Origin: a virus
IMG/VR virus record: IMGVR_UViG_3300012927_000002
Coordinates: 1-52,198 of that record
Direction: 5' to 3' (one strand)
DNA: 52,198 nt
This document shows positions 39,924 to 50,894 of this stretch, in pieces. Each line of letters begins with the position of its first letter. The first letter of the stretch is position 1. A model generated the notes under the pieces. It searched no databases. It saw only the letters and a list, made by a program, of their open reading frames with translations, and had not been told where the DNA came from. The translations under genes were made by a program, and so were the position numbers.

Positions 39924-39951
39924 AAACACCCCAAAGACATCTGGGGTGTTT
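39924..39951. terminator. Bidirectional intrinsic terminator between convergent operons
   Basis: aaacacccca-aagacatc-tggggtgttt: a 10-bp perfect stem with an 8-nt loop. A T-run follows on the plus strand, and ttttcttttgcg follows on the minus strand. Confidence 0.75.
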
Positions 39952-40008: not shown

Positions 40009-40212
40009 CTAACCGATCGTGGGCGGCGTGGGAACCGGATTGGCCGGGTCCTGGCCGAGCTCCTTGAGGTGCGTGCTGAGCGCGGTCATCTCGGCGATCT
40101 GTTCGTCGGTCGCGTTGTTGCCCAGGGCGGCGATCAGGCGGTCGATGCGAGCGGCCACGGCGTTGGTGCCATCGTTGAAGGCGGCGATGAGGTCGGTGAA
40201 CTTGTCGGCCAT
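40009..40212 (-). CDS. Small helical protein downstream of the fibre gene (possible fibre chaperone/assembly factor)
   Basis: 67 aa from ATG 40212 (gaAGGAttccagctcATG): MADKFTDLIAAFNDGTNAVAARIDRLIAALGNN.... A longer start at 40281 is possible. Confidence 0.45.
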   Translation of the reverse strand: MADKFTDLIAAFNDGTNAVAARIDRLIAALGNNATDEQIAEMTALSTHLKELGQDPANPVPTPPTIG

Positions 40213-40328
40213 GAGCTGGAATCCTTCGGTGATCGCGTGAGCGATGATGCGGTGGCCGCGGGTTGAAGTGAAAGGCCACATGCCGGCGACCCTACCGCTC
40301 CGGGGTGACAGCGTCCAGTTCCGGTGAC

Positions 40329-43300
40329 CTAGAGCTGGTTGACGACGCCGCGCATCGCCAGGCCGGACGGCTCGATCAGGTAGACCCGGGCCCCGCTGGT
40401 GAACGTGGCCACCAGGTCGTGCGAGTAGACGTTCGCCGCGAGCCCGGCGTTGTCGGCCGGAAGCACGGTGATCGCGACCTGGGGCGTGACCGCGCCCGCC
40501 GTGATGACGATGCCCGCGCCGAGCGACTTGCCAACCAGTGCCGGATCCGGGTCGCCGCGGTTGAGCTTGACCTGCCACTCGAGCGTGACCACCTGCCACT
40601 TTCCCGTGGTGAGGTCAACTGGTAGTCCGGTGTCGGGGTCAAGTACACCAACTGTGATCACACGGCTCTCGCCGCGGAGCATCTGGAGGTAGAGCTGCAT
40701 CGTCCTGCCTTCGCGGGTGAGAAGACGTGGCGCCCGCGCGACCACGATCGGTCGAAGGTCGACCAGCGGCGGGGTGAAGTTGAGGGCGGCCGAGAACGGC
40801 GACGCCTCCCCGCCCTGCTGCGCCGTCCGCACACGGAGCAGGAAGTCGGGGAAGTACGGCGCCCACAGCGGCGGCGCGGGGGCCTGTGGGATGACCAGGA
40901 CCGGGCCGACCGCCTCGCCTGGCGCCGTCCGGCGAGCTCGCAGCGGGACCATGACCGGCTGCGCCAGCCAGCTGTTGACCGCGGGCACCACCGGCGGCGG
41001 CACGATCGCCACGGGCGCGACCTCGCCGGCGGTCTGCCGCGAAATCGTGCGGGCGAGCGCGTGCGGGAAGCTCGGCGACCAGGAGGTGACGAGCGGGACC
41101 GCCGCCGGCGCGGGCGTCGTGACCGGCGCCGTCTCGCCGCCCTGGAGGCGCACCAGGGCGCGAGGCGCGGCGTCCGGGAAGCTGGGCGCCCAGCTCGAGA
41201 TCGACGGCACCGAGGCCGCGACCACGACGACCGGGGGCGCCGTCTCGCCGGCCGTGATCCGGATCGGCGACCGGGGGATCAGGTCAGGCGCGCTCGACCA
41301 CCACGGCGCCGGGGCGAAGTTCAACGCCGGCGCGGTCTCGCCGGATGGCTGCCGACGTGAGGCGCGACCGATCAAGTCGGGGAACGCGGGGGCCCAGCTC
41401 AGCAGCGGCGCAGCCGGCGCCGGAAGCCGCGGAGGCGCAGTCTCGCCGCCCTCGAGAACCCGGCGCGCGCGCCGCGGGATCTCGTCCTGCCGATACAGCC
41501 AGTCAAACGGCTGCAGGTCGGTCGTCACCGCCTGGAACGCGAGGTGCCAGAGGATCGCGCCCTCGGGGCCGTCGCCGCTGACCGTGCCCTGCGTGCTGTA
41601 CTTGTAGGTCCCGGCGATGTCGACCAGGCGGGTGAACACCTCGATCTGGATATAGCCAGCCGGGTCGCAGTCGCCCTCGGCGCAGACCCGCGCGATCCGC
41701 GTGTAGCCTGCCGGCGTGGTGAAGATGTGGCCCTGGTTGACGTTGCCGTTGCCGCCAACGATCGCGACGAGGAGGGCCTTGGCGGTGGTGGTGACCGCCG
41801 CGCTCGTGATCGTCGCCGAGGTCCCGTTGGCGACCTCGAGCACGCTCGACGACTGCAGGATCGGCGTGTTGAACAGCTCGAGGCCGGCGATCACCACCTC
41901 GTCTTGCTGGCCGCCGATGTTGCCGATCGCCGCCGACCAGGTGTGCCCCGCGCCGCCAGCCCCTCGCGCGATCGAGACCGAGAACGAGGAGCTGGGGAAC
42001 GCGTCGTAGTTGCGCGGCGCGCTCGGGATGTAGCTGTACGTATTGCCGAACGAGTCGGTCGCCTGGTTCGGCGCGGTGGCCTGGGTGCCGCGCGCGAAGA
42101 TCGCCAGGAACGTCGAGTACAACGGCTGCGTGTTGACCGTGCGGACGAGCGTGTGTGTGCCGGTCCCGGCGTCCGTGAGGTCGACCGCGGTGCCGGCCTT
42201 GGCGAGCGCCGGCGACAGCGCGAGCTTCACGGTCGTCGTGCTCGGCACGATCATGTAGTAGAGCGTCGTCGAGTCGGACCCCGCCGGCAGCGTCCCGGTC
42301 GTCGAGAGCCGGAACGGGCCGGCCGTCACGATCATCCCGTGCGTGCCGGTGGTGAGCGTGTCGGTCGCCGCGACCGCGGTGAACGTGAGGTCCGTGCCGA
42401 ACGTGGTGAGCGGCGTGGCGAAGGCCAGCTGGTTGAGGATGTTCTGCCGGACCGCGCCGTCTCCGACGGTCAGCGACCTGCCGCCGGACGGCGGCGGCGA
42501 GACCGCCCCGGCCGCAGCGTGGAGCGGATGGCGGGCCCGGTTGATGATGTCGGGGAACGTCGGCGCCCACGACAGCGGCGAGACGGGAACGGTCAGGACG
42601 ATCGCGACAGGCCCCATCATCCCGCCGACGTTGAGCGGGCTCCGGGCTCGCGGAACCAGATCCGGAAAGACCGGCGTCCAGCTGAGGGGCGGCGCCGGGA
42701 TGTTCGTGATGACCGTGACCGGGCCGGTGACGCCGCCGACGTTGAGCGGGCTCCGGGCTCGCGGCACCAGATCGGGGAACTGCGGCGTCCAGGACATCGC
42801 TGGCGCCGCGGCGGCGAGCGTGATCTTCTCGGGCGCGCACTGGCCGCCGACGTTGAGCGGCGCGCGCGCCCGAGGGATCTGATCCGGGAACGTCGGCGCC
42901 CACGACAGCGGCGGGACGGGCGCGCTCGGCAGGACGGGAGGCGCGACCAGGGCGGCGACCAGGAGGGCGGCGCTGGCGACGCGGCGCACCGGCATCTCGT
43001 GGATGCACGGAGACCACGACATGTCGGGCGTCAGGTCGTCGACGTTGCTCAGCGTTCCGACGAAATCGAACGTCGGCCCCGGCGTGAAGCTGCCCAGGTA
43101 GAGCGTGTCCGTGACGTCGTGGTACGGCCCGGCCAGCGTGTACGAGAACGTGCCGTTTCCGGTCAGCGCGCCCGAGATCGTGACGGTCTTCGCGCGCGCA
43201 TCGTCGATGACCGTGATCGGCGTACCACCGAGCCAGGTCAGCGCCTGGTCGAAGACCGTGGCGTCCCCGGGGGCGGTGAACTTCTGGAGGTGGGTATCGA

Positions 43301-43487
43301 CCAGCCAGATCCCGCCGTGCGCGCCCGAGAACAGGATGTGGAAGTTGCCGCCGGTGTACGTCGCGCTCGCCGCGGTCGGCGTGAACACGAACCGGGTCAC
43401 CCCGAAGTTGAACGCCCTGGCGTACCCGTTGTACGTGCCCGGCGCGAACGAGCGCGGGATCGACGGTACCGGCAGGACCACCGTCAT
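40329..43487 (-). CDS. Giant tail-fibre/receptor-binding-type protein with two arrays of SWxPxFPDxxPR modules
   Basis: 1052-aa single ORF. Layout: N-terminal about 160 aa, hydrophobic segment (167-190), 4 repeats, about 320-aa central beta-rich region, about 7 degenerate repeats, and a C-terminal about 120-aa Ig/BppU-N-like domain. Confidence 0.65.
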   Translation of the reverse strand: MTVVLPVPSIPRSFAPGTYNGYARAFNFGVTRFVFTPTAASATYTGGNFHILFSGAHGGIWLVDTHLQKFTAPGDATVFDQALTWLGGTPITVIDDARAKTVTISGALTGNGTFSYTLAGPYHDVTDTLYLGSFTPGPTFDFVGTLSNVDDLTPDMSWSPCIHEMPVRRVASAALLVAALVAPPVLPSAPVPPLSWAPTFPDQIPRARAPLNVGGQCAPEKITLAAAAPAMSWTPQFPDLVPRARSPLNVGGVTGPVTVITNIPAPPLSWTPVFPDLVPRARSPLNVGGMMGPVAIVLTVPVSPLSWAPTFPDIINRARHPLHAAAGAVSPPPSGGRSLTVGDGAVRQNILNQLAFATPLTTFGTDLTFTAVAATDTLTTGTHGMIVTAGPFRLSTTGTLPAGSDSTTLYYMIVPSTTTVKLALSPALAKAGTAVDLTDAGTGTHTLVRTVNTQPLYSTFLAIFARGTQATAPNQATDSFGNTYSYIPSAPRNYDAFPSSSFSVSIARGAGGAGHTWSAAIGNIGGQQDEVVIAGLELFNTPILQSSSVLEVANGTSATITSAAVTTTAKALLVAIVGGNGNVNQGHIFTTPAGYTRIARVCAEGDCDPAGYIQIEVFTRLVDIAGTYKYSTQGTVSGDGPEGAILWHLAFQAVTTDLQPFDWLYRQDEIPRRARRVLEGGETAPPRLPAPAAPLLSWAPAFPDLIGRASRRQPSGETAPALNFAPAPWWSSAPDLIPRSPIRITAGETAPPVVVVAASVPSISSWAPSFPDAAPRALVRLQGGETAPVTTPAPAAVPLVTSWSPSFPHALARTISRQTAGEVAPVAIVPPPVVPAVNSWLAQPVMVPLRARRTAPGEAVGPVLVIPQAPAPPLWAPYFPDFLLRVRTAQQGGEASPFSAALNFTPPLVDLRPIVVARAPRLLTREGRTMQLYLQMLRGESRVITVGVLDPDTGLPVDLTTGKWQVVTLEWQVKLNRGDPDPALVGKSLGAGIVITAGAVTPQVAITVLPADNAGLAANVYSHDLVATFTSGARVYLIEPSGLAMRGVVNQL
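40773..41507 (-). repeat. Degenerate coding repeat array 2 (about 7 units of about 35 aa: SW(A/S)P(A/S)FPD..PR.....GGE(T/A)AP)
   Basis: Read from translation residues 661-905. Confidence 0.7.
42482..42917 (-). repeat. Coding tandem repeat array 1 (4 units of about 112 nt: PLSW(A/T)P.FPD..PRAR.PLNVGG)
   Basis: Near-identical DNA segments, e.g. gggaacgtcggcgcccacgacagcggcg at about 42553 and about 42887, and ccgccgacgttgagcgggctccgggctcgcgg twice. Confidence 0.8.
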
Positions 43488-43493
43488 CGGTGG

Positions 43494-43772
43494 CTACCCT
43501 ACAAGCTCGACGCCGCGAAGGAAGACCCTACGGCCCTCCATCTTCTCGAGCTTGGCCTCGAACGGGACACAGGTTCCGGCGTCCGAGCACGGGCCGCAGG
43601 TCGCGCGCATGCACAGCCGGCAGAACCCGCCGATGTCCGCCTCGCTCTGCCCGGCCTGGAAGTGCACCACGCGCGAGCAGTGGCAGCACGTCAGCGTGTG
43701 CATCTCGACCGTCGGGGCATCCGGGTCGACGATGATGGCCGCGCCGCGAAAGCTGGCCTGCGACCGCGACAT
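43494..43772 (-). CDS. Cys-rich small protein (10 Cys; probable zinc binding)
   Basis: 92 aa from ATG 43772: ...MHTLTCCHCSRVVHFQAGQSEADIGGFCRLCMRATCGPCSDAGTCVPFEAKLEKME.... Confidence 0.5.
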   Translation of the reverse strand: MSRSQASFRGAAIIVDPDAPTVEMHTLTCCHCSRVVHFQAGQSEADIGGFCRLCMRATCGPCSDAGTCVPFEAKLEKMEGRRVFLRGVELVG

Positions 43773-43773
43773 G

Positions 43774-44223
43774 CTAGAGCTCGAACACCGTGGCGTTGGC
43801 CCGGCACGACACCAGGGCGCCGGCGGTCGGCGTCCGCACGGCGAGCCCGTTCGCGCTGGTCGCCGGGGTGTACAGCTCACTGCCCGGAGGGGCGACCCAC
43901 CGGTAGGTGGAGCGCTGGTTGAGGCCGATCGACAGCCTGACCTGGTTGGCCGTCAGCGTCGGGTCGGCGGAGTGGTTCTGGCCGGCCGTGATCGTCGGCG
44001 TGCCGTCCGCGGGATTCGCCGCCGTCAGCGTGATCGACGTGTTGGTACCCTGGGTGGTGCACGCCTGGACCTCCCACACGAAGCCGAAGTCACCCGGGGT
44101 GGCCTCGGCGGCCCCGAACATGATGTCCGACATCATGCTCCGCCGGGTGGTCGCCGGGGACCCCCAGCTGCCAACCGACAGTGTGGCGGATGCCGTCCGG
44201 GCCATGACGATTTGGATCTGCAT
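43774..44223 (-). CDS. Hypothetical beta-rich protein
   Basis: 149 aa: ...DFGFVWEVQACTTQGTNTSITLTAANPADGTPTITAG...RSTYRWVAPPGSELY.... No family named. Confidence 0.5.
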   Translation of the reverse strand: MQIQIVMARTASATLSVGSWGSPATTRRSMMSDIMFGAAEATPGDFGFVWEVQACTTQGTNTSITLTAANPADGTPTITAGQNHSADPTLTANQVRLSIGLNQRSTYRWVAPPGSELYTPATSANGLAVRTPTAGALVSCRANATVFEL

Positions 44224-44261: not shown

Positions 44262-44441
44262 CTACCGGCGCGCGCGGCCGTTGCCCCAGCCGCGGACCGG
44301 GCCGTTGCCCTCCTTCATCGTGTTGATGTCCCGGTTCTGCAGCTCGATGTCGACCTCCGAGATCGAGCGCCGTGCGTCTTCGGTCTCGTTCTGGCTCAGG
44401 AGCTTCGCGATCGCGTTGTTGGGCGGCAGCACGTAGGACAT
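44262..44441 (-). CDS. Hypothetical small protein (59 aa; below the track cutoff)
   Basis: Hand-translated as MSYVLPPNNAIAKLLSQNETEDARRSISEVDIELQNRDINTMKEGNGPVRGWGNGRARR. Third-position GC is high, and it is the first ORF after the divergent intergenic region. Confidence 0.35.
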   Translation of the reverse strand: MSYVLPPNNAIAKLLSQNETEDARRSISEVDIELQNRDINTMKEGNGPVRGWGNGRARR

Positions 44442-48218: not shown

Positions 48219-48917
48219 TCAGCGCCGGAAGATCGGAGTGAGATACCCGACATGCAGGAAGGTCCCGCCGCTCACGCTGATATTGAGCGCGAGCGCCATT
48301 CCGCTGACCAGTCCGCCGACGATGCCAACCGACGTGAAAGTCACCGTGGTCCATGTCGCGGGGACGTTGGTCGCGGTCACGCTTCCGGCCCCCGAGAATC
48401 CTGCGGCGTTGTAGCTGGACCGGAAGGCGAGCCCTGTGCCGACTGCGGCACCATCTGCGATGTCCACCGCCCCGTCGCCGAACACCTCCATCGAGAATCC
48501 CACGATGTTGTCCCCGACATCGAACGGGATCATCGTCTTGTAGACGCTTCCGGTTGTCAGCTTCCAGGCCAGGAAGTCGTTGACGCCGTTGGGGTTTACT
48601 ACGCAAACCGCGGTGCCGCCGAGCCACGTGGACGGGAAGATCCGTCGGGCGATCGGAGGGCGGTTGCTGCCCACAACCATGTCCTGCAGCTCGTCGAGCA
48701 GGGCCGCGGTGACGGGGTCGCCCGCGACGACGTTCAGGGTTCTGGCATCAGGAAGATTTCCCATGGCGGCGCATCCTTGTGGCGATGACGGCGCGTCGGC
48801 CGTCGGACTATCGAGCGAAGCGTCGAGCATCGGCTCGTACGAATCGCCGTCGTAGAACGAGCATGAACAGAGGAGTAAGGCGAGCGCGAGATGCTTCATG
48901 ATTGCATTTGTAGTCAT
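48219..48917 (-). CDS. Lipoprotein-signal-bearing beta-rich protein in the tail-fibre slot
   Basis: 232 aa. The N-terminus (MTTNAI)MKHLALALLLCSCSF looks like a signal/lipobox. The remainder is Gly/Val/Thr-rich and beta-type. It lies downstream of the gp48-like gene. Confidence 0.55.
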   Translation of the reverse strand: MTTNAIMKHLALALLLCSCSFYDGDSYEPMLDASLDSPTADAPSSPQGCAAMGNLPDARTLNVVAGDPVTAALLDELQDMVVGSNRPPIARRIFPSTWLGGTAVCVVNPNGVNDFLAWKLTTGSVYKTMIPFDVGDNIVGFSMEVFGDGAVDIADGAAVGTGLAFRSSYNAAGFSGAGSVTATNVPATWTTVTFTSVGIVGGLVSGMALALNISVSGGTFLHVGYLTPIFRR

Positions 48918-48941: not shown

Positions 48942-50894
48942 CTAGTATCCGCCGAGCGGGCCGAGGTCGGTCCCGGTCGCGGGGTCGTCGGTCAGCATCG
49001 CGCGCTTGGTGATGAACGCGACGTGCGTGTACGCGTGCTTGATGCTCTCGAGCACTGACTGGGCGCCCCGGACATCGGGAGAGAAGCCAAGCGCTGAGTC
49101 CAGGAAGACGTAGGCGTTGAACGGTCGGGTGCCGAAGGTGTCGCGCACCTTGAAGTTGTCGACGTCGACCTGCGACGCCCCAGCCGTCGCTCCGCCAGCG
49201 GTGCGCATGTACACGCCAGTCCAGTGCGCCACCGTCGGGTGCGTGATGTTCGGCGAGAGCGTGAACGGTCCGGCCTCGGCGGTGACAGACCAAGCCGCCG
49301 CCCAAAGCCCGTCGGTGGTCTGCTGGAAGACGTGCAGCCAGAGCGCCGCTGGGTTGCCGCCAAGCGTGGCCTGGTCGACCGCGCCCTGCGACACGCCGGC
49401 GATGAACGACTCGGTGAAGATATGGAACGCGCCGGCGACATCACGCAGACCGACGAGCAGGAAGTTGCCGTGGGCCCGCTCCGCGAAGAACACGCCGACC
49501 TCGAGATTCGCCTGGGGCGTGGTCATGGCCAGCTTCGCGATCGCGTGGGCCTGCTTGCCACCACCGGACAGGGCGAGCTGCATGTAGCGCCATCCGCCCG
49601 TGGTGTCGGCGGCGAACGCGAACGTGCCGGCAGCGCGAGAGCTTCGTGCCCCAACCCCCGCCGCCGTCCAGGTCGCGGCCGGTGTCACATCCCAGCGGAG
49701 CGGGTCGATGGTCGCGAACTCGTCGACGATCGTATTGGAGAACGCGATGAACTCGAGGTCATCGATGCTGGCTCCGCCGAGCAGTCCGACGAGAGCATCG
49801 CCGATCCCCGGGATCGAGATGCCGCGGCGCTGCCGCAGGCGGGCGACCACGCGCGCCCGGCGCGTGTCGATGTCGTGGTTCGGAAAGGGCGTGGGCCTGG
49901 TCACCGTCTCCCAGTCGTCAAGCACCGAGCCGTAGGCCCGGCCCGGCAGCGCGTTGGCGCGGAAGTTCTCGATCTGGGCGGCGGCGTAGCCGAGCGCGTG
50001 ACCGATCATCCGGGTCTCGAGCGCCTGGTCAGACGACGGGTCGAGCGACAGCGGGAAGCCCTGGTCGTGCATGTCGACGAACAGGCTGTGGCCGAGTGGC
50101 TGGTAGAGCGTGAGCCGCAGCCAGGTTGCCTCCACCTCCTCGTGCGTCAGCTCGCGCGGCACGATCATGATCTCGTCGATGATCCCATCGAAGAACAGCG
50201 CGTCGGTGCTGTCCCATCGCGTGCCGACCTGGAACGTTCCGGTGGTGCCTCCGCCGATCGATCCGAACACGTTGACGTTCTCGCCGAGTAGTAGATCGCC
50301 GATGTAGTAGCGGACCACCACGCTGGTGGGTGACACCCACCGCCGGGTCGCGGTGAGCAGCGTGAACGTGTTGGGCGGACACGTGATCGAAACGCCGGCG
50401 TCGGTTCGGATCACGCTGCCAACGTCCTCCCAGAACATCCGCATCGTGCCGGTGAACGTCGATGTGCTGGTGACGACCAGCTCGAGCCCGTAGCAGATCT
50501 GATCCGCGGCCGGACCGTTGTTGAGGCCCCGGGAGACCACGTTGGCGATGTCGGTCTGCACCGCGGCGTTCCACGACAGAATCGTCTGGATCGTGACATC
50601 GCGCGTAAGGAGTGACGCGCCCGGCGTGGCGTCCTTCGCGCCAAGGCCCGTGTGCGACAGCGCGACGAACCTCCGCCCGCGCCCCGTGAAGGCATCCACC
50701 ACGGCGGGCACGGTGAGGAACGTGGTGATCTGGCTGAGCTTGGTCAGGTCGTTGAGCGAGCCCGCATCGTCCTTCGGGTGGATCGCGGTCGCCGTCTCGT
50801 TGAACCGCAGGAGCACCACCGCGTCCTCGTCGAACAGCCCGATGGTGCCGGGCGGCGAGAGGTTCATCGTCTTGTCAGCGCCCGGCGCCATCAC
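48942..50894 (-). CDS. Baseplate protein: N-terminal LamG/ConA-like domain fused to a Mu gp48 / P2 gpI-like (DUF2313) module with an inserted domain
   Basis: 650 aa. ...ALFFDGIIDEIMIVPRELTHEEVEATWLRL is a LamG-type ending. YGSVLDDWETVTRPTPFPNHDIDTRRARVVARLRQRRG and the C-terminal ...LESIKHAYTHVAFI fit the gp48/gpI type. Confidence 0.6.
   Translation of the reverse strand: MMAPGADKTMNLSPPGTIGLFDEDAVVLLRFNETATAIHPKDDAGSLNDLTKLSQITTFLTVPAVVDAFTGRGRRFVALSHTGLGAKDATPGASLLTRDVTIQTILSWNAAVQTDIANVVSRGLNNGPAADQICYGLELVVTSTSTFTGTMRMFWEDVGSVIRTDAGVSITCPPNTFTLLTATRRWVSPTSVVVRYYIGDLLLGENVNVFGSIGGGTTGTFQVGTRWDSTDALFFDGIIDEIMIVPRELTHEEVEATWLRLTLYQPLGHSLFVDMHDQGFPLSLDPSSDQALETRMIGHALGYAAAQIENFRANALPGRAYGSVLDDWETVTRPTPFPNHDIDTRRARVVARLRQRRGISIPGIGDALVGLLGGASIDDLEFIAFSNTIVDEFATIDPLRWDVTPAATWTAAGVGARSSRAAGTFAFAADTTGGWRYMQLALSGGGKQAHAIAKLAMTTPQANLEVGVFFAERAHGNFLLVGLRDVAGAFHIFTESFIAGVSQGAVDQATLGGNPAALWLHVFQQTTDGLWAAAWSVTAEAGPFTLSPNITHPTVAHWTGVYMRTAGGATAGASQVDVDNFKVRDTFGTRPFNAYVFLDSALGFSPDVRGAQSVLESIKHAYTHVAFITKRAMLTDDPATGTDLGPLGGY

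What the first reader, a model, noticed from the sequence alone, without database searches (positions are those of the whole stretch)
40329..43487. 1052-aa fibre-like protein built around about 11 copies of an SWxPxFPDxxPR module
Seen in sequence: four well-conserved units (PLSW(A/T)P.FPD(L/Q)(V/I)PRAR(S/A)PLNVGG, about 112-nt DNA period, 42482-42917) and about seven degenerate units (SW(A/S)P(A/S)FPD..PR.....GGE(T/A)AP, 40773-41507) flank a central region of about 320 aa.

I do not recognise this module as a described fibre repeat. It is not collagen-like, not a T4 gp37 type and not a pyocin knob type.

Inference: this may be a modular shaft or a repeated docking motif. The near-identical DNA copies would allow recombinational length variation.
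Basis: seen in the sequence. Interest (0 to 1): 0.62.

Follow-up and report, generated by a model that had tools for sequence, protein, structure and literature searches.

The report
Rare Trp-Pro repeat in phage fibre-like protein
A soil phage encodes a 1052-residue, probably host-binding appendage protein in which sugar-binding-type domains are strung on two arrays of a rare, undescribed 33-37-residue tryptophan/proline repeat, and this repeat always travels with the same two small partner genes, so how it is built and attached is an open structural question.

Summary
ORF 40329-43487 (-) is a real gene with 12 repeat units, not 11: unit 0 plus four good units, then seven looser ones. They flank a 317-aa two-domain core.

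The strict motif W.P.[FY]P[DH] occurs 8 times against 0.0006 in shuffles. The repeat has no match in Pfam, PHROGs, NCBIfam or the PDB, and only 36 of 1.84 billion protein clusters carry it.

Across 54 proteins (602 units) W-to-W spacing stays at 31-39 aa. Orthologous units, linkers included, evolve about as slowly as the N-terminal domain. This argues for a structured unit, not a floppy linker.

The globular parts are swappable: a LamG-like or another N-domain, a jelly-roll or GH140 glycosidase core, and an Ig-like C-domain that is fused or separate. The constants are the repeats, a hydrophobic segment after unit 0, and two upstream genes, A (149-aa jelly-roll) and B (92-aa Cys-rich).

The claim of near-identical DNA copies is wrong. 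Units are at most 71% identical and the longest exact repeat is 32 nt. Whole-unit gain or loss between relatives is real.

Best reading, at about 50%: a modular glycan-targeting virion fibre whose repeats form an oligomeric or partner-dependent stalk. Shaft versus docking motif could not be resolved, because no multimer prediction, virion data or reads were available.

The parts
44262..44441 (-). 59-aa ORF, first gene of the operon (unknown function)
   Evidence: GC3 0.97. Called as a gene on the JGI contig. It lies directly upstream of A and faces the divergent RHH cassette.
43774..44223 (-). Gene A: 149-aa jelly-roll protein, constant partner of the repeat proteins
   Evidence: The AF2 model has pLDDT 88.6 and is all-beta. 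Foldseek gives only weak hits to single-jelly-roll capsid proteins, with TM about 0.4. There is no Pfam, PHROG, NCBIfam or PDB match. Homologues of 46-85% identity stand directly upstream of repeat proteins in L001, L003, L005, L008, L009 and L011.
43494..43772 (-). Gene B: 92-aa Cys-rich (CCHC...CxxC...CxxC...C) protein, probably zinc-binding; second constant partner
   Evidence: Its start follows the A stop by one base, and its stop lies 6 nt before the ATG of the target. Homologues of 46-72% identity always stand between A and the repeat protein. No family match was found.
40329..43487 (-). Gene C: the 1052-aa repeat protein (the finding)
   Evidence: About 20 full-length homologues exist, and none of them is named.
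43038..43487 (-). C aa 1-150: N-terminal beta-sandwich, LamG/galectin/CBM40-like
   Evidence: AF2 pLDDT is 74-92 here. Foldseek hits agrin and laminin LG domains, galectins and CBM40 at E about 1e-3. P0011, P0015, P0017 and P0020 carry a different N-domain in its place.
42918..43022 (-). C aa 156-190: degenerate unit 0 (MSWSPCIHEMPVRR) followed by a hydrophobic Ala/Leu/Val segment
   Evidence: This is the most hydrophobic 19-mer of the protein (Kyte-Doolittle 1.92), and it is conserved at the same place in most family members. AF2 draws a low-confidence helix at aa 171-180.
42474..42932 (-). C aa 186-338: repeat block 1, four 37-aa units (W196, 233, 270, 307)
   Evidence: Family consensus: LSWaPxFPDxapRARxaxnvGGxaxPEAtlPNpPAPp. 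AF2 pLDDT is about 25.
41523..42473 (-). C aa 339-655: central core, made of an ~85-aa small beta domain (aa ~366-450) plus a ~200-aa jelly-roll-like domain
   Evidence: AF2 block-mean pLDDT is mostly 50-80 here. The small domain is shared at 36-57% identity with proteins of Sphingomonas and Rhizobium phages and with J-like proteins. This is the most conserved part of the subfamily, at 48-80% identity. P0021-P0025 carry a GH140 apiosidase-like domain instead.
40713..41522 (-). C aa 656-925: repeat block 2, seven looser 32-37-aa units (W663 to W875) of the '...R..R...GGETAPP' type
   Evidence: The window protein lacks exactly one unit that P0002-P0005 have at about aa 753.
40329..40700 (-). C aa 930-1052: Ig-like C-terminal domain 'D' (ends VVNQL), with its own in-frame ATG and an SD-like GAAGGCAGGA
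   Evidence: One search shows the junction sequence. D is a separate 126-aa ORF overlapping the stop of C in L001 and is missing from the shorter proteins P0003, P0005, P0008 and P0009, while P0002, P0004 and P0006 have it fused. A related C-terminal domain in P0020 gives a sub-threshold BppU_N hit at E 0.015.
40009..40281 (-). Small downstream ORF (66-90 aa, helical, unknown function), last gene of the operon
39924..39951 (-). Terminator-like hairpin (12-bp stem plus T tract) closing the operon

Best explanation
Gene C most likely encodes a modular, glycan-targeting virion appendage: a side fibre or whisker type of host-recognition protein. The phage is an uncultured soil phage with a contractile tail and a Mu-like baseplate.

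The globular modules are the working heads. They are a LamG-like N-domain, a small 'tail-fibre' beta domain plus a jelly-roll core, and an Ig-like C-domain. All of them can be exchanged between relatives. The two arrays of the 33-37-residue unit (consensus LSWxPxFPDxxPRARxxxNVGGxxxPEATLPNPPAP) form the stalk. The stalk spaces the heads and needs either oligomerisation or a partner to fold.

The protein is made from a compact late operon: 59-aa ORF, A, B, C(+D), small ORF. The jelly-roll protein A and the Cys-rich protein B are its constant companions, presumably as anchor or adaptor and as assembly factor.

Shown: the gene, the repeat and its significance, its rarity, the constraint on unit length, the slow evolution of whole units, the domain swaps, the A-B-C linkage, and the lectin-type folds.

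Inferred: virion location, oligomeric stalk, glycan binding, and the roles of A and B.
For: Phage context. The contig is a complete phage with terminase, portal, capsid, sheath, tape measure, hub, Baseplate_J and a Mu Gp48-like protein on the same strand as the target, and with lysis genes between the baseplate and this operon.

Location in relatives. In L008 and L009 the cassette lies between the major head protein and the tail sheath/tube genes. In L009 it is followed by a protein that hits PHROG 863 ('tail fiber assembly') and shares its body domain with the N-domain of P0020.

Domain folds. The N-domain and core give LamG, galectin and CBM40 folds, and viral 'tail fiber' and ConA-like models match. 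P0021-P0025 carry a GH140 apiosidase-like domain plus a Collagen_bind_2 domain between the same repeats. Other carriers look LamG-like or discoidin-like by eye; this was not tested.

Unit geometry. W-to-W spacing is 31-39 aa across 602 units in 54 proteins, with modes at 37 and 33.

Evolutionary rate. Among close relatives the repeat blocks are about as conserved as the N-domain. The inter-motif parts (79, 73, 61 and 62% identity) are as conserved as the motif core (81, 83, 59 and 67%). Disordered linkers would be expected to drift faster.

Structure prediction. The AF2 monomer leaves the arrays at pLDDT about 25 while folding the four globular parts. From my general experience with AlphaFold, this is the usual behaviour for obligate-oligomer fibre shafts.

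Operon layout. The genes are tightly coupled and the operon ends at a terminator-like hairpin.
Against: - There is no virion evidence. No cultured phage carries C or B, and A matches only one uncultured virus record.
- No known baseplate-attachment or fibre N-terminal domain is present, and neither the N-terminal nor the C-terminal domain is constant across the family. This is unlike classical fibres, which keep a conserved anchoring end.
- The core is the most conserved part of the subfamily. In typical receptor-binding proteins the receptor-binding part varies most.
- The arrays are 18-19% proline and are predicted unstructured, so a true disordered spacer cannot be excluded.
- A conserved TM-like hydrophobic segment (Kyte-Doolittle 1.8-2.3) follows unit 0. 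This is unusual for a fibre.
- In the window phage the operon is separated from the baseplate genes by the lysis and RHH cassettes. In L001 it is on the strand opposite to the baseplate genes.
Confidence: 0.5

Rival explanations
1. Repeated docking motif. Each SWxPxFPDxxPR core is a short linear peptide that binds a copy or oligomer of the cassette's jelly-roll protein A, or a periodic virion lattice such as capsid or sheath. The arrays then act as multivalent attachment straps, or form a beads-on-a-string filament, rather than a self-folding shaft.
For: The only features common to all C-type proteins are the repeats and unit 0 with its hydrophobic segment. The N-domain, core and C-domain are all exchangeable. 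A and B are conserved at 46-85% identity and always sit directly upstream, whatever the payload and whatever the phage backbone. A-B pairs in more distant phages are again followed by other 31-40-aa Pro/Trp/Arg repeat proteins. Some members (P0028, P0037, P0038) are almost pure repeat arrays. The information content of the unit is concentrated in a 13-residue core. The arrays are unstructured in the monomer model. From memory and not tested here: the adenovirus fibre tail docks on its jelly-roll-containing penton base through a short aromatic/proline peptide, which would be a precedent.
Against: Among close relatives the inter-motif segments are as conserved as the core. Positions outside the core are also conserved: GG at +18/19 and prolines at +23, +28, +31 and +33. 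A and B also occur in an uncultured myovirus (MW202566) where the profile finds no repeat protein next to them. The family-wide unit HMM does not reach the repeats of the distant A-B loci. The fold of A has only weak, generic jelly-roll matches. No interaction was tested.
Confidence: 0.22
2. Semi-rigid disordered spacer. The arrays are proline-rich, PPII-like entropic tethers with no discrete fold, like TonB or PT linkers. They simply hold the lectin-type domains away from the particle, and the conserved motif only tunes stiffness.
For: The blocks are 18-19% Pro and 14-16% Ala. pLDDT is about 25 over both blocks. Unit number is freely variable, from 6 to 28.
Against: The Trp is invariant, and P, F/Y, P, D and R are 72-88% conserved at fixed offsets. 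Spacing is tightly held at 31-39 aa. Orthologous units evolve as slowly as the N-terminal domain. The family is very rare, unlike generic low-complexity linkers.
Confidence: 0.13
3. Not a virion part. C is an envelope-anchored protein of the infected cell. The aa 165-190 segment acts as a membrane anchor, with the proline-rich arrays spanning the periplasm. It would act in superinfection exclusion, surface-glycan remodelling or release.
For: The hydrophobic 19-mer after unit 0 is the most hydrophobic stretch in most members (Kyte-Doolittle 1.8-2.3) and is preceded by Arg-Arg. In P0028, P0031 and P0032 it lies near the N-terminus. In the window the operon lies next to the lysis and accessory cassettes, not within the baseplate genes.
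Against: In the window protein 164 residues of a LamG-like domain precede the segment, with no signal peptide. A and B have no export signals that I could see in their sequences. The segment is Ala/Pro-rich and short. In L008 and L009 the cassette lies inside the head-to-tail morphogenetic block. L009 pairs it with a fibre-type protein.
Confidence: 0.1
4. Degenerate Kelch-type beta-propeller blades.
For: The only PDB profile hit is a designed Kelch propeller, 8pjs 'SAKe', at E 1.7e-5. It shares the pattern W-x-P-x-x-P-x-x-x-P-R with the same W-to-R spacing.
Against: Each of the six matches scores only about 4 bits, and the total is inflated by six nearly identical designed blades. Units of 33-37 aa with 7-9 prolines are too short and too proline-rich for a four-stranded blade. 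Unit numbers vary freely from 3 to 14 per array. AF2 builds no propeller. There is no Pfam Kelch hit.
Confidence: 0.02

Closest known systems
Modular phage tail fibres and side fibres with repeated shaft units and exchangeable receptor-binding or depolymerase domains (for example the T4 gp34-37 fibres, lambda Stf, and Mu S / P2 H fibres downstream of the baseplate genes). This comparison rests on general knowledge.
   Same: It is a late-operon gene near the baseplate and lysis genes of a phage with a Mu-like baseplate. It is long and all-beta/coil, with tandem units whose number varies between relatives. It carries lectin-type or glycosidase domains that are swapped between relatives, and it has small accessory genes beside it.
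   Different: The repeat unit has no sequence relation to any described fibre repeat. The arrays flank a central payload instead of leading to a C-terminal tip. There is no conserved N-terminal anchoring domain. The accessory genes lie upstream and are a jelly-roll protein and a Cys-rich protein, not a Tfa/gp38/U-type chaperone. A hydrophobic segment opens the first array.
Adenovirus fibre-tail / penton-base docking and the PRD1 P5/P31 vertex. In these, a short aromatic/proline peptide or a fibre N-terminus sits on a small jelly-roll protein. Recalled from memory; a lead, not a test.
   Same: The core motif is short and rich in aromatic residues and proline, and it ends in an acidic residue. 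It is genetically linked to a small jelly-roll protein, A.
   Different: Here the motif is repeated 6-28 times inside the protein rather than once at the N-terminus. The PDB profile search at E<=10 returned only a designed Kelch protein and no fibre or penton chain. A gives only generic jelly-roll matches at TM about 0.4. This is a tailed phage, and no interaction has been shown.
Carbohydrate-binding decorations of virions (neck passage structures, and CBM-bearing accessory proteins of lactococcal siphophages such as BppU/BppA-type baseplate proteins). This comparison rests on general knowledge.
   Same: These are accessory, exchangeable proteins that bear lectin-type modules. The C-terminal domain is Ig-like and BppU_N-like. 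The cassette sits in the head-to-tail region in some relatives.
   Different: The BppU_N match is sub-threshold and was obtained only for a relative (E 0.015 at 15.4 bits, against a cut-off of 23.1). The phages here have contractile tails and high GC content, and spanin candidates noted earlier suggest a Gram-negative host. The repeat and the A-B partners are not known from those systems.

Membership tests
Described fibre/shaft repeat families in Pfam (e.g. Phage_fiber_2, Collagen, tail-collar and T4 gp37-type repeats) | Significant match of the unit or the protein to the family HMM | tested here: not met
   hmmscan of the whole protein against Pfam-A at E<=1 gave 0 families. PHROGs gave 0 and NCBIfam gave 0.
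Any repeat or fold with a solved structure | Sequence or profile match to a PDB chain | tested here: not met
   phmmer with the whole protein at E<=1 found nothing. The 12-unit profile found only the designed Kelch protein 8pjs, at about 4 bits per unit.
Kelch beta-propeller repeat | Blades of 44-56 aa with four strands, a closed set of blades, and a significant per-blade score | tested here: not met
   Units are 31-39 aa and carry 7-9 prolines. Unit numbers per array vary from 3 to 14. AF2 builds no propeller. Per-unit scores are about 4 bits.
Phage tail fibre / receptor-binding protein (functional class) | Encoded in the late structural gene region of a tailed phage | tested here: met
   The operon lies on the structural strand, downstream of the Baseplate_J and Mu Gp48-like genes and the lysis genes. 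In L008 and L009 it lies between the major head protein and the sheath/tube genes.
Phage tail fibre / receptor-binding protein (functional class) | Recognisable virion-attachment domain at one end, conserved among related phages | tested here: not met
   No PHROG or Pfam anchor domain was found. The N-domain is exchanged in P0011, P0015, P0017 and P0020. The C-domain is fused, separate or replaced.
Phage tail fibre / receptor-binding protein (functional class) | Ligand-binding or depolymerase domain | tested here: inconclusive
   Foldseek gives LamG, galectin and CBM40 hits at E about 1e-3, with target-normalised TM of 0.37-0.5. Relatives carry PF13204 and PF12904 at E 1e-30 and 4e-10. No binding data exist.
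Phage tail fibre / receptor-binding protein (functional class) | Homotrimeric shaft and presence in the virion | not testable with these tools
   Only monomer AF2 was available. No isolate and no proteomics exist. No cultured phage carries C or B, and A matches only one uncultured virus record.
LamG / ConA-like lectin fold (N-domain aa 1-150) | Beta-sandwich superposable on LG, galectin or CBM40 domains | tested here: inconclusive
   AF2 pLDDT is 74-92. The Foldseek best E is 7e-4, with probability 1.0 but TM 0.37-0.5 and rmsd 5-8 A. There is no Pfam Laminin_G_3 hit.
BppU_N (PF10651) for the C-terminal domain D | Score above the Pfam gathering threshold | tested here: not met
   The window protein has no hit. 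The C-terminal domain of P0020 scores 15.4 bits against a cut-off of 23.1.
Single-jelly-roll capsid or penton proteins (for partner protein A) | Confident structural superposition on a specific family | tested here: inconclusive
   The A model has pLDDT 88.6. The best Foldseek hits are picornavirus VP2, STNV and PCV2 at E 1e-3, TM about 0.4 and rmsd 8-12 A. This shows a generic jelly-roll only.

The most novel reading that the evidence does not exclude
A, B and the Trp-Pro repeat arrays form a previously unrecognised, self-contained 'plug-in appendage' system of tailed phages. In it, the SWxPxFPDxxPR unit is a docking peptide for the jelly-roll protein A, with B as a zinc-dependent assembly factor. 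Arbitrary payload domains such as lectins or glycosidases could then be mounted on unrelated virions. Alternatively, the unit defines a new trimeric fibre fold. The same A-B pair followed by other 31-40-aa Pro/Trp/Arg repeat proteins in distant phages would make this a broad, undescribed module class.
Probability: 0.2. Interest if true: 0.7.

Novelty: new variant of a known kind. Interest (0 to 1): 0.48.

Why it matters
Receptor-binding appendages decide phage host range, yet those of uncultured soil phages are almost entirely unannotated. This work defines a rare repeat family with a clear consensus. It has tight geometry, exchangeable lectin or glycosidase payloads, and two invariant partner genes.

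If the arrays are a new fibre fold, or a docking system for the jelly-roll partner, they would supply a new building block for understanding and engineering how payload domains are mounted on virions. They would also give an annotation handle for a set of currently nameless proteins in metagenomes.

If the arrays turn out to be only a proline-rich spacer, the finding is an ordinary, if unusual-looking, fibre protein.

Tried and rejected
- Pfam, PHROGs, NCBIfam and PDB sequence or profile searches of the protein, the unit profile, A, B and D found no family.
- The Kelch relation suggested by the single PDB profile hit was rejected.
- A prolyl or Asp/Asn hydroxylase acting on the repeats was considered, because PF05118 genes lie near the cassette in L011 and L013. 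The window phage has no PF05118 or PF13640 gene, so this was dropped.
- The scan of 185,579 species genomes with the C alignment found no prophage copy. A second scan with the A alignment found A-B pairs only on MAG contigs binned to many phyla, which says nothing reliable about the host.
- tblastn against 50,697 phage records found no cultured phage with C or B. Only the ~85-aa small domain is shared, and A matches one uncultured virus record.
- A family-wide unit HMM built from 467 aligned units failed to reach the Pro/Trp repeat proteins next to distant A-B pairs, so their relation to this repeat rests on visual similarity only.
- BLAST found no relative of the C-terminal domain of P0026 among the neighbouring proteins of L008-L011 or the other repeat proteins tested.
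- Two literature searches found no description of such a repeat.
- An early notebook statement that P0021-P0025 share the small domain was wrong and was corrected. They share the repeats.

Full report
**1. The observation**

The window is a complete 52,198-bp IMG/VR virus record with direct terminal repeats. ORF 40329..43487 on the minus strand encodes 1052 aa. Its third-position GC is 0.93, like the other genes of this 68% GC phage.

Anchoring on tryptophan gives twelve units. They lie at W158, 196, 233, 270 and 307 (37 aa, 111 nt apart) and at W663, 698, 730, 766, 803, 840 and 875 (32-37 aa apart).

The strict motif W.P.[FY]P[DH] occurs 8 times. In 5000 shuffles of the protein its mean count is 0.0006 and its maximum is 1.

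At the DNA level the copies are not near-identical:
- Pairwise unit identity is at most 71%.
- The longest exact direct repeat in the ORF is 32 nt.
- Tandem Repeats Finder sees no array.

Homologues that are 62-76% identical, from other samples, are collinear over the full length. Misassembly across repeats is therefore unlikely. The identical protein on a 52,032-bp JGI contig is probably the same assembly.

**2. Anatomy of the protein**

AlphaFold2 with a 19-sequence alignment gives five regions:
- aa 1-150: a beta-sandwich, pLDDT 74-92.
- aa 154-338: unstructured, pLDDT about 25.
- aa 366-652: two beta domains, block-mean pLDDT mostly 50-80.
- aa 654-937: unstructured again.
- aa 938-1040: a beta domain, pLDDT 55-65.

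Foldseek relates the model to LamG domains, galectins and CBM40 in the PDB. The tool does not report which residues of the model matched. Against predicted viral structures it relates the model to ConA-like and 'tail fiber' models. These include matches of about 85 aa at 25-38% identity, which correspond to the small domain at aa ~366-450. The same small domain is the only part found in cultured phages. It occurs in Sphingomonas and Rhizobium phage proteins and in J-like proteins such as P0027 and P0029.

The last 123 aa form an Ig-like domain, D. It has its own in-frame ATG preceded by GAAGGCAGGA. D is a separate 126-aa ORF overlapping the stop of C in L001, and it is missing from the shorter proteins P0003, P0005 and P0009. 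It is fused in the window and in P0002, P0004 and P0006.

**3. The repeat as a family**

No Pfam, PHROG, NCBIfam or PDB family matches the protein or a profile of its 12 units. The only PDB hit is a designed Kelch protein, at about 4 bits per unit, which I reject as a relative.

The 12-unit profile was scored against 1.84 billion cluster representatives. It finds only 36 proteins at E<=1e-3, with up to 28 units in one protein.

Across 54 carriers and 602 units, W-to-W spacing is confined to 31-39 aa, with modes at 37 and 33. The 37-residue class has the consensus LSWaPxFPDxapRARxaxnvGGxaxPEAtlPNpPAPp. In it W is found in 100% of units, P+2 in 86%, F/Y+4 in 92%, P+5 in 88%, D+6 in 83%, R+10 in 80% and G+18 in 75%. 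Prolines recur at +23, +28, +31 and +33.

Among close relatives the repeat blocks are roughly as conserved as the N-domain. Against P0002, block 1 is 86% identical, block 2 is 74% and the N-domain is 88%. The inter-motif parts are as conserved as the motif core: 79, 73, 61 and 62% against 81, 83, 59 and 67%. This argues against freely drifting linkers.

Unit number does change. The window protein lacks exactly one unit that P0002-P0005 have at about aa 753.

**4. What is constant and what is swapped**

Swapped parts:
- The N-domain is replaced by an unrelated ~230-aa domain in P0011, P0015, P0017 and P0020. In L009 that domain occurs as the body of a separate protein that hits PHROG 863 ('tail fiber assembly').
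- The core is replaced by a GH140 apiosidase-like domain plus a Collagen_bind_2 domain in P0021-P0025. These proteins share only the repeats with the target, including unit 0 and its hydrophobic segment.
- Other carriers have domains that look LamG-like or discoidin-like by eye (not tested), or are almost pure arrays, such as P0028, P0037 and P0038.

Constant parts:
- The repeat arrays.
- The hydrophobic 19-mer after unit 0. It is the most hydrophobic stretch in most members, with Kyte-Doolittle 1.8-2.3.
- Two upstream genes, A and B.

A (149 aa; 43774-44223) models confidently at pLDDT 88.6 as a jelly-roll. It has only generic matches to single-jelly-roll capsid proteins, at TM about 0.4. B (92 aa; 43494-43772) carries a CCHC...CxxC...CxxC...C pattern.

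A and B homologues of 46-85% identity stand immediately upstream of repeat proteins in L001, L003, L005, L008, L009 and L011. This holds whatever the payload and whatever the phage backbone. The backbones are a ~52-kb Mu-like-baseplate type, a 121-kb type with a Phi812-like tail tube, and a 135-kb contig.

A-B pairs also occur on MAG contigs binned to many phyla and in the uncultured myovirus MW202566. In several of these, B is followed within a few genes by other proteins built of 31-40-aa Pro/Trp/Arg repeats. Examples are DWQQPQS.P...RR.P.GDTFAPV in L018 and KWKPQYPDIVPTR in L023. A family-wide unit HMM does not reach these repeats, so that wider link is visual only.

**5. Genomic setting**

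All structural genes are on the minus strand and wrap around the contig end: terminase, portal, protease, capsid, sheath, tape measure, hub, Baseplate_J and a Mu Gp48-like protein with a LamG insert. Earlier notes of this scan placed a lysis cassette and a reverse-strand RHH cassette between the baseplate genes and this operon.

The operon runs from 44441 to 39924. Its order is the 59-aa ORF, A, B, C with fused D, and a 66-90-aa ORF. The gene junctions are tight, and the operon ends at a 12-bp hairpin with a T tract.

In L001 the same cassette is on the strand opposite to the baseplate genes. In L008 and L009 it lies between the major head protein and the sheath/tube genes. The cassette is therefore a mobile, self-contained unit within morphogenetic regions.

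**6. Mechanism**

My best reading, at about 0.5, is a modular glycan-targeting virion appendage. In it the arrays form a stalk that needs oligomerisation or a partner to fold. The context, the lectin and glycosidase payloads, the fixed unit length and the slow evolution of whole units support this.

The strongest argument for it is that no globular part of C is constant, whereas A and B are. The argument against is that the whole unit is constrained, not just the core.

Weaker alternatives are a purely disordered PPII spacer (about 0.13) and an envelope-anchored, non-virion protein using the hydrophobic segment (about 0.1).

Points against the simple fibre reading:
- There is no conserved anchoring end.
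- The core is the most conserved part.
- A TM-like segment opens the first array.
- There is no virion evidence at all.

**7. Comparison and novelty**

Functionally the protein most resembles modular phage fibres with exchangeable receptor-binding or depolymerase domains. It fails membership of every described repeat family that could be tested.

The aromatic/proline motif next to a jelly-roll partner recalls adenovirus fibre-tail docking on the penton base. That is a recollection, not a test, and the PDB profile search returned no such chain.

I class the finding as a new variant of a known kind. It is a rare, undescribed stalk or docking repeat with a conserved two-gene partner set.

The limits are plain. 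All homologues are metagenomic, the host is unknown, and shaft versus docking remains open.

Noticed in passing
window 40329-40700 (aa 930-1052 of C); L001 12886-13266: The Ig-like C-terminal domain D is fused in frame in the window, where it has its own ATG and an SD-like GAAGGCAGGA. In L001 it is a separate 126-aa ORF overlapping the stop of C, and it is missing from the shorter proteins P0003, P0005, P0008 and P0009. D may therefore be made both as a fusion and as a free protein.
   Followed up: partly
window 42918-43022 (aa 156-190 of C): A conserved Arg-Arg plus 17-19-residue Ala/Leu/Val segment follows unit 0 in most family members (Kyte-Doolittle 1.8-2.3). It is TM-like or SAR-like, or it could be a trimerisation helix. 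Its role is unexplained.
   Followed up: partly
L013 6179-8257; L016 10979-11740; L017 10520-12997; L018 10876-13167; L019 11338-12780; L023 2758-3348: Distant A-B gene pairs are followed by other proteins made of 31-40-aa Pro/Trp/Arg repeats, for example DWQQPQS.P...RR.P.GDTFAPV, FYPDRIVRPAPQQP and EWWQPWSEPV. The unit HMM does not detect them. This may be a wider module class.
   Followed up: partly
window 42137-42391 (aa ~366-450 of C): An ~85-aa beta domain is shared at 36-57% identity with proteins annotated 'tail tube' or 'tail sheath' in Sphingomonas and Rhizobium phages, and with lambda-J-like proteins (P0027, P0029). It is a mobile tail-protein domain with no Pfam entry.
   Followed up: partly
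window 48219-48917 (-): The 232-aa protein directly after the Mu Gp48-like baseplate gene starts with a lipoprotein-like signal (MKHLALALLLCSC). It has a fibre-tip-like motif (VTAALLDELQDMV) and no family match. L001 has an ORF of the same size at the same place.
   Followed up: no
L011 12913-13434; L013 1746-2210: Small Asp_Arg_Hydrox (PF05118) genes lie near the A-B-repeat cassette in two related loci. The window phage has none.
   Followed up: yes
L001 9272-13266 compared with window 40329-44223: The whole A-B-C-D cassette lies on the strand opposite to the baseplate operon in L001 but on the same strand in the window. In L008 and L009 it lies between the head and sheath genes. The cassette moves as a unit.
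   Followed up: partly
window 48942-50894 (-): The Mu Gp48-like baseplate protein carries an N-terminal Laminin_G_3-like insert (aa 91-254), so the baseplate itself also displays a lectin-type domain.
   Followed up: no
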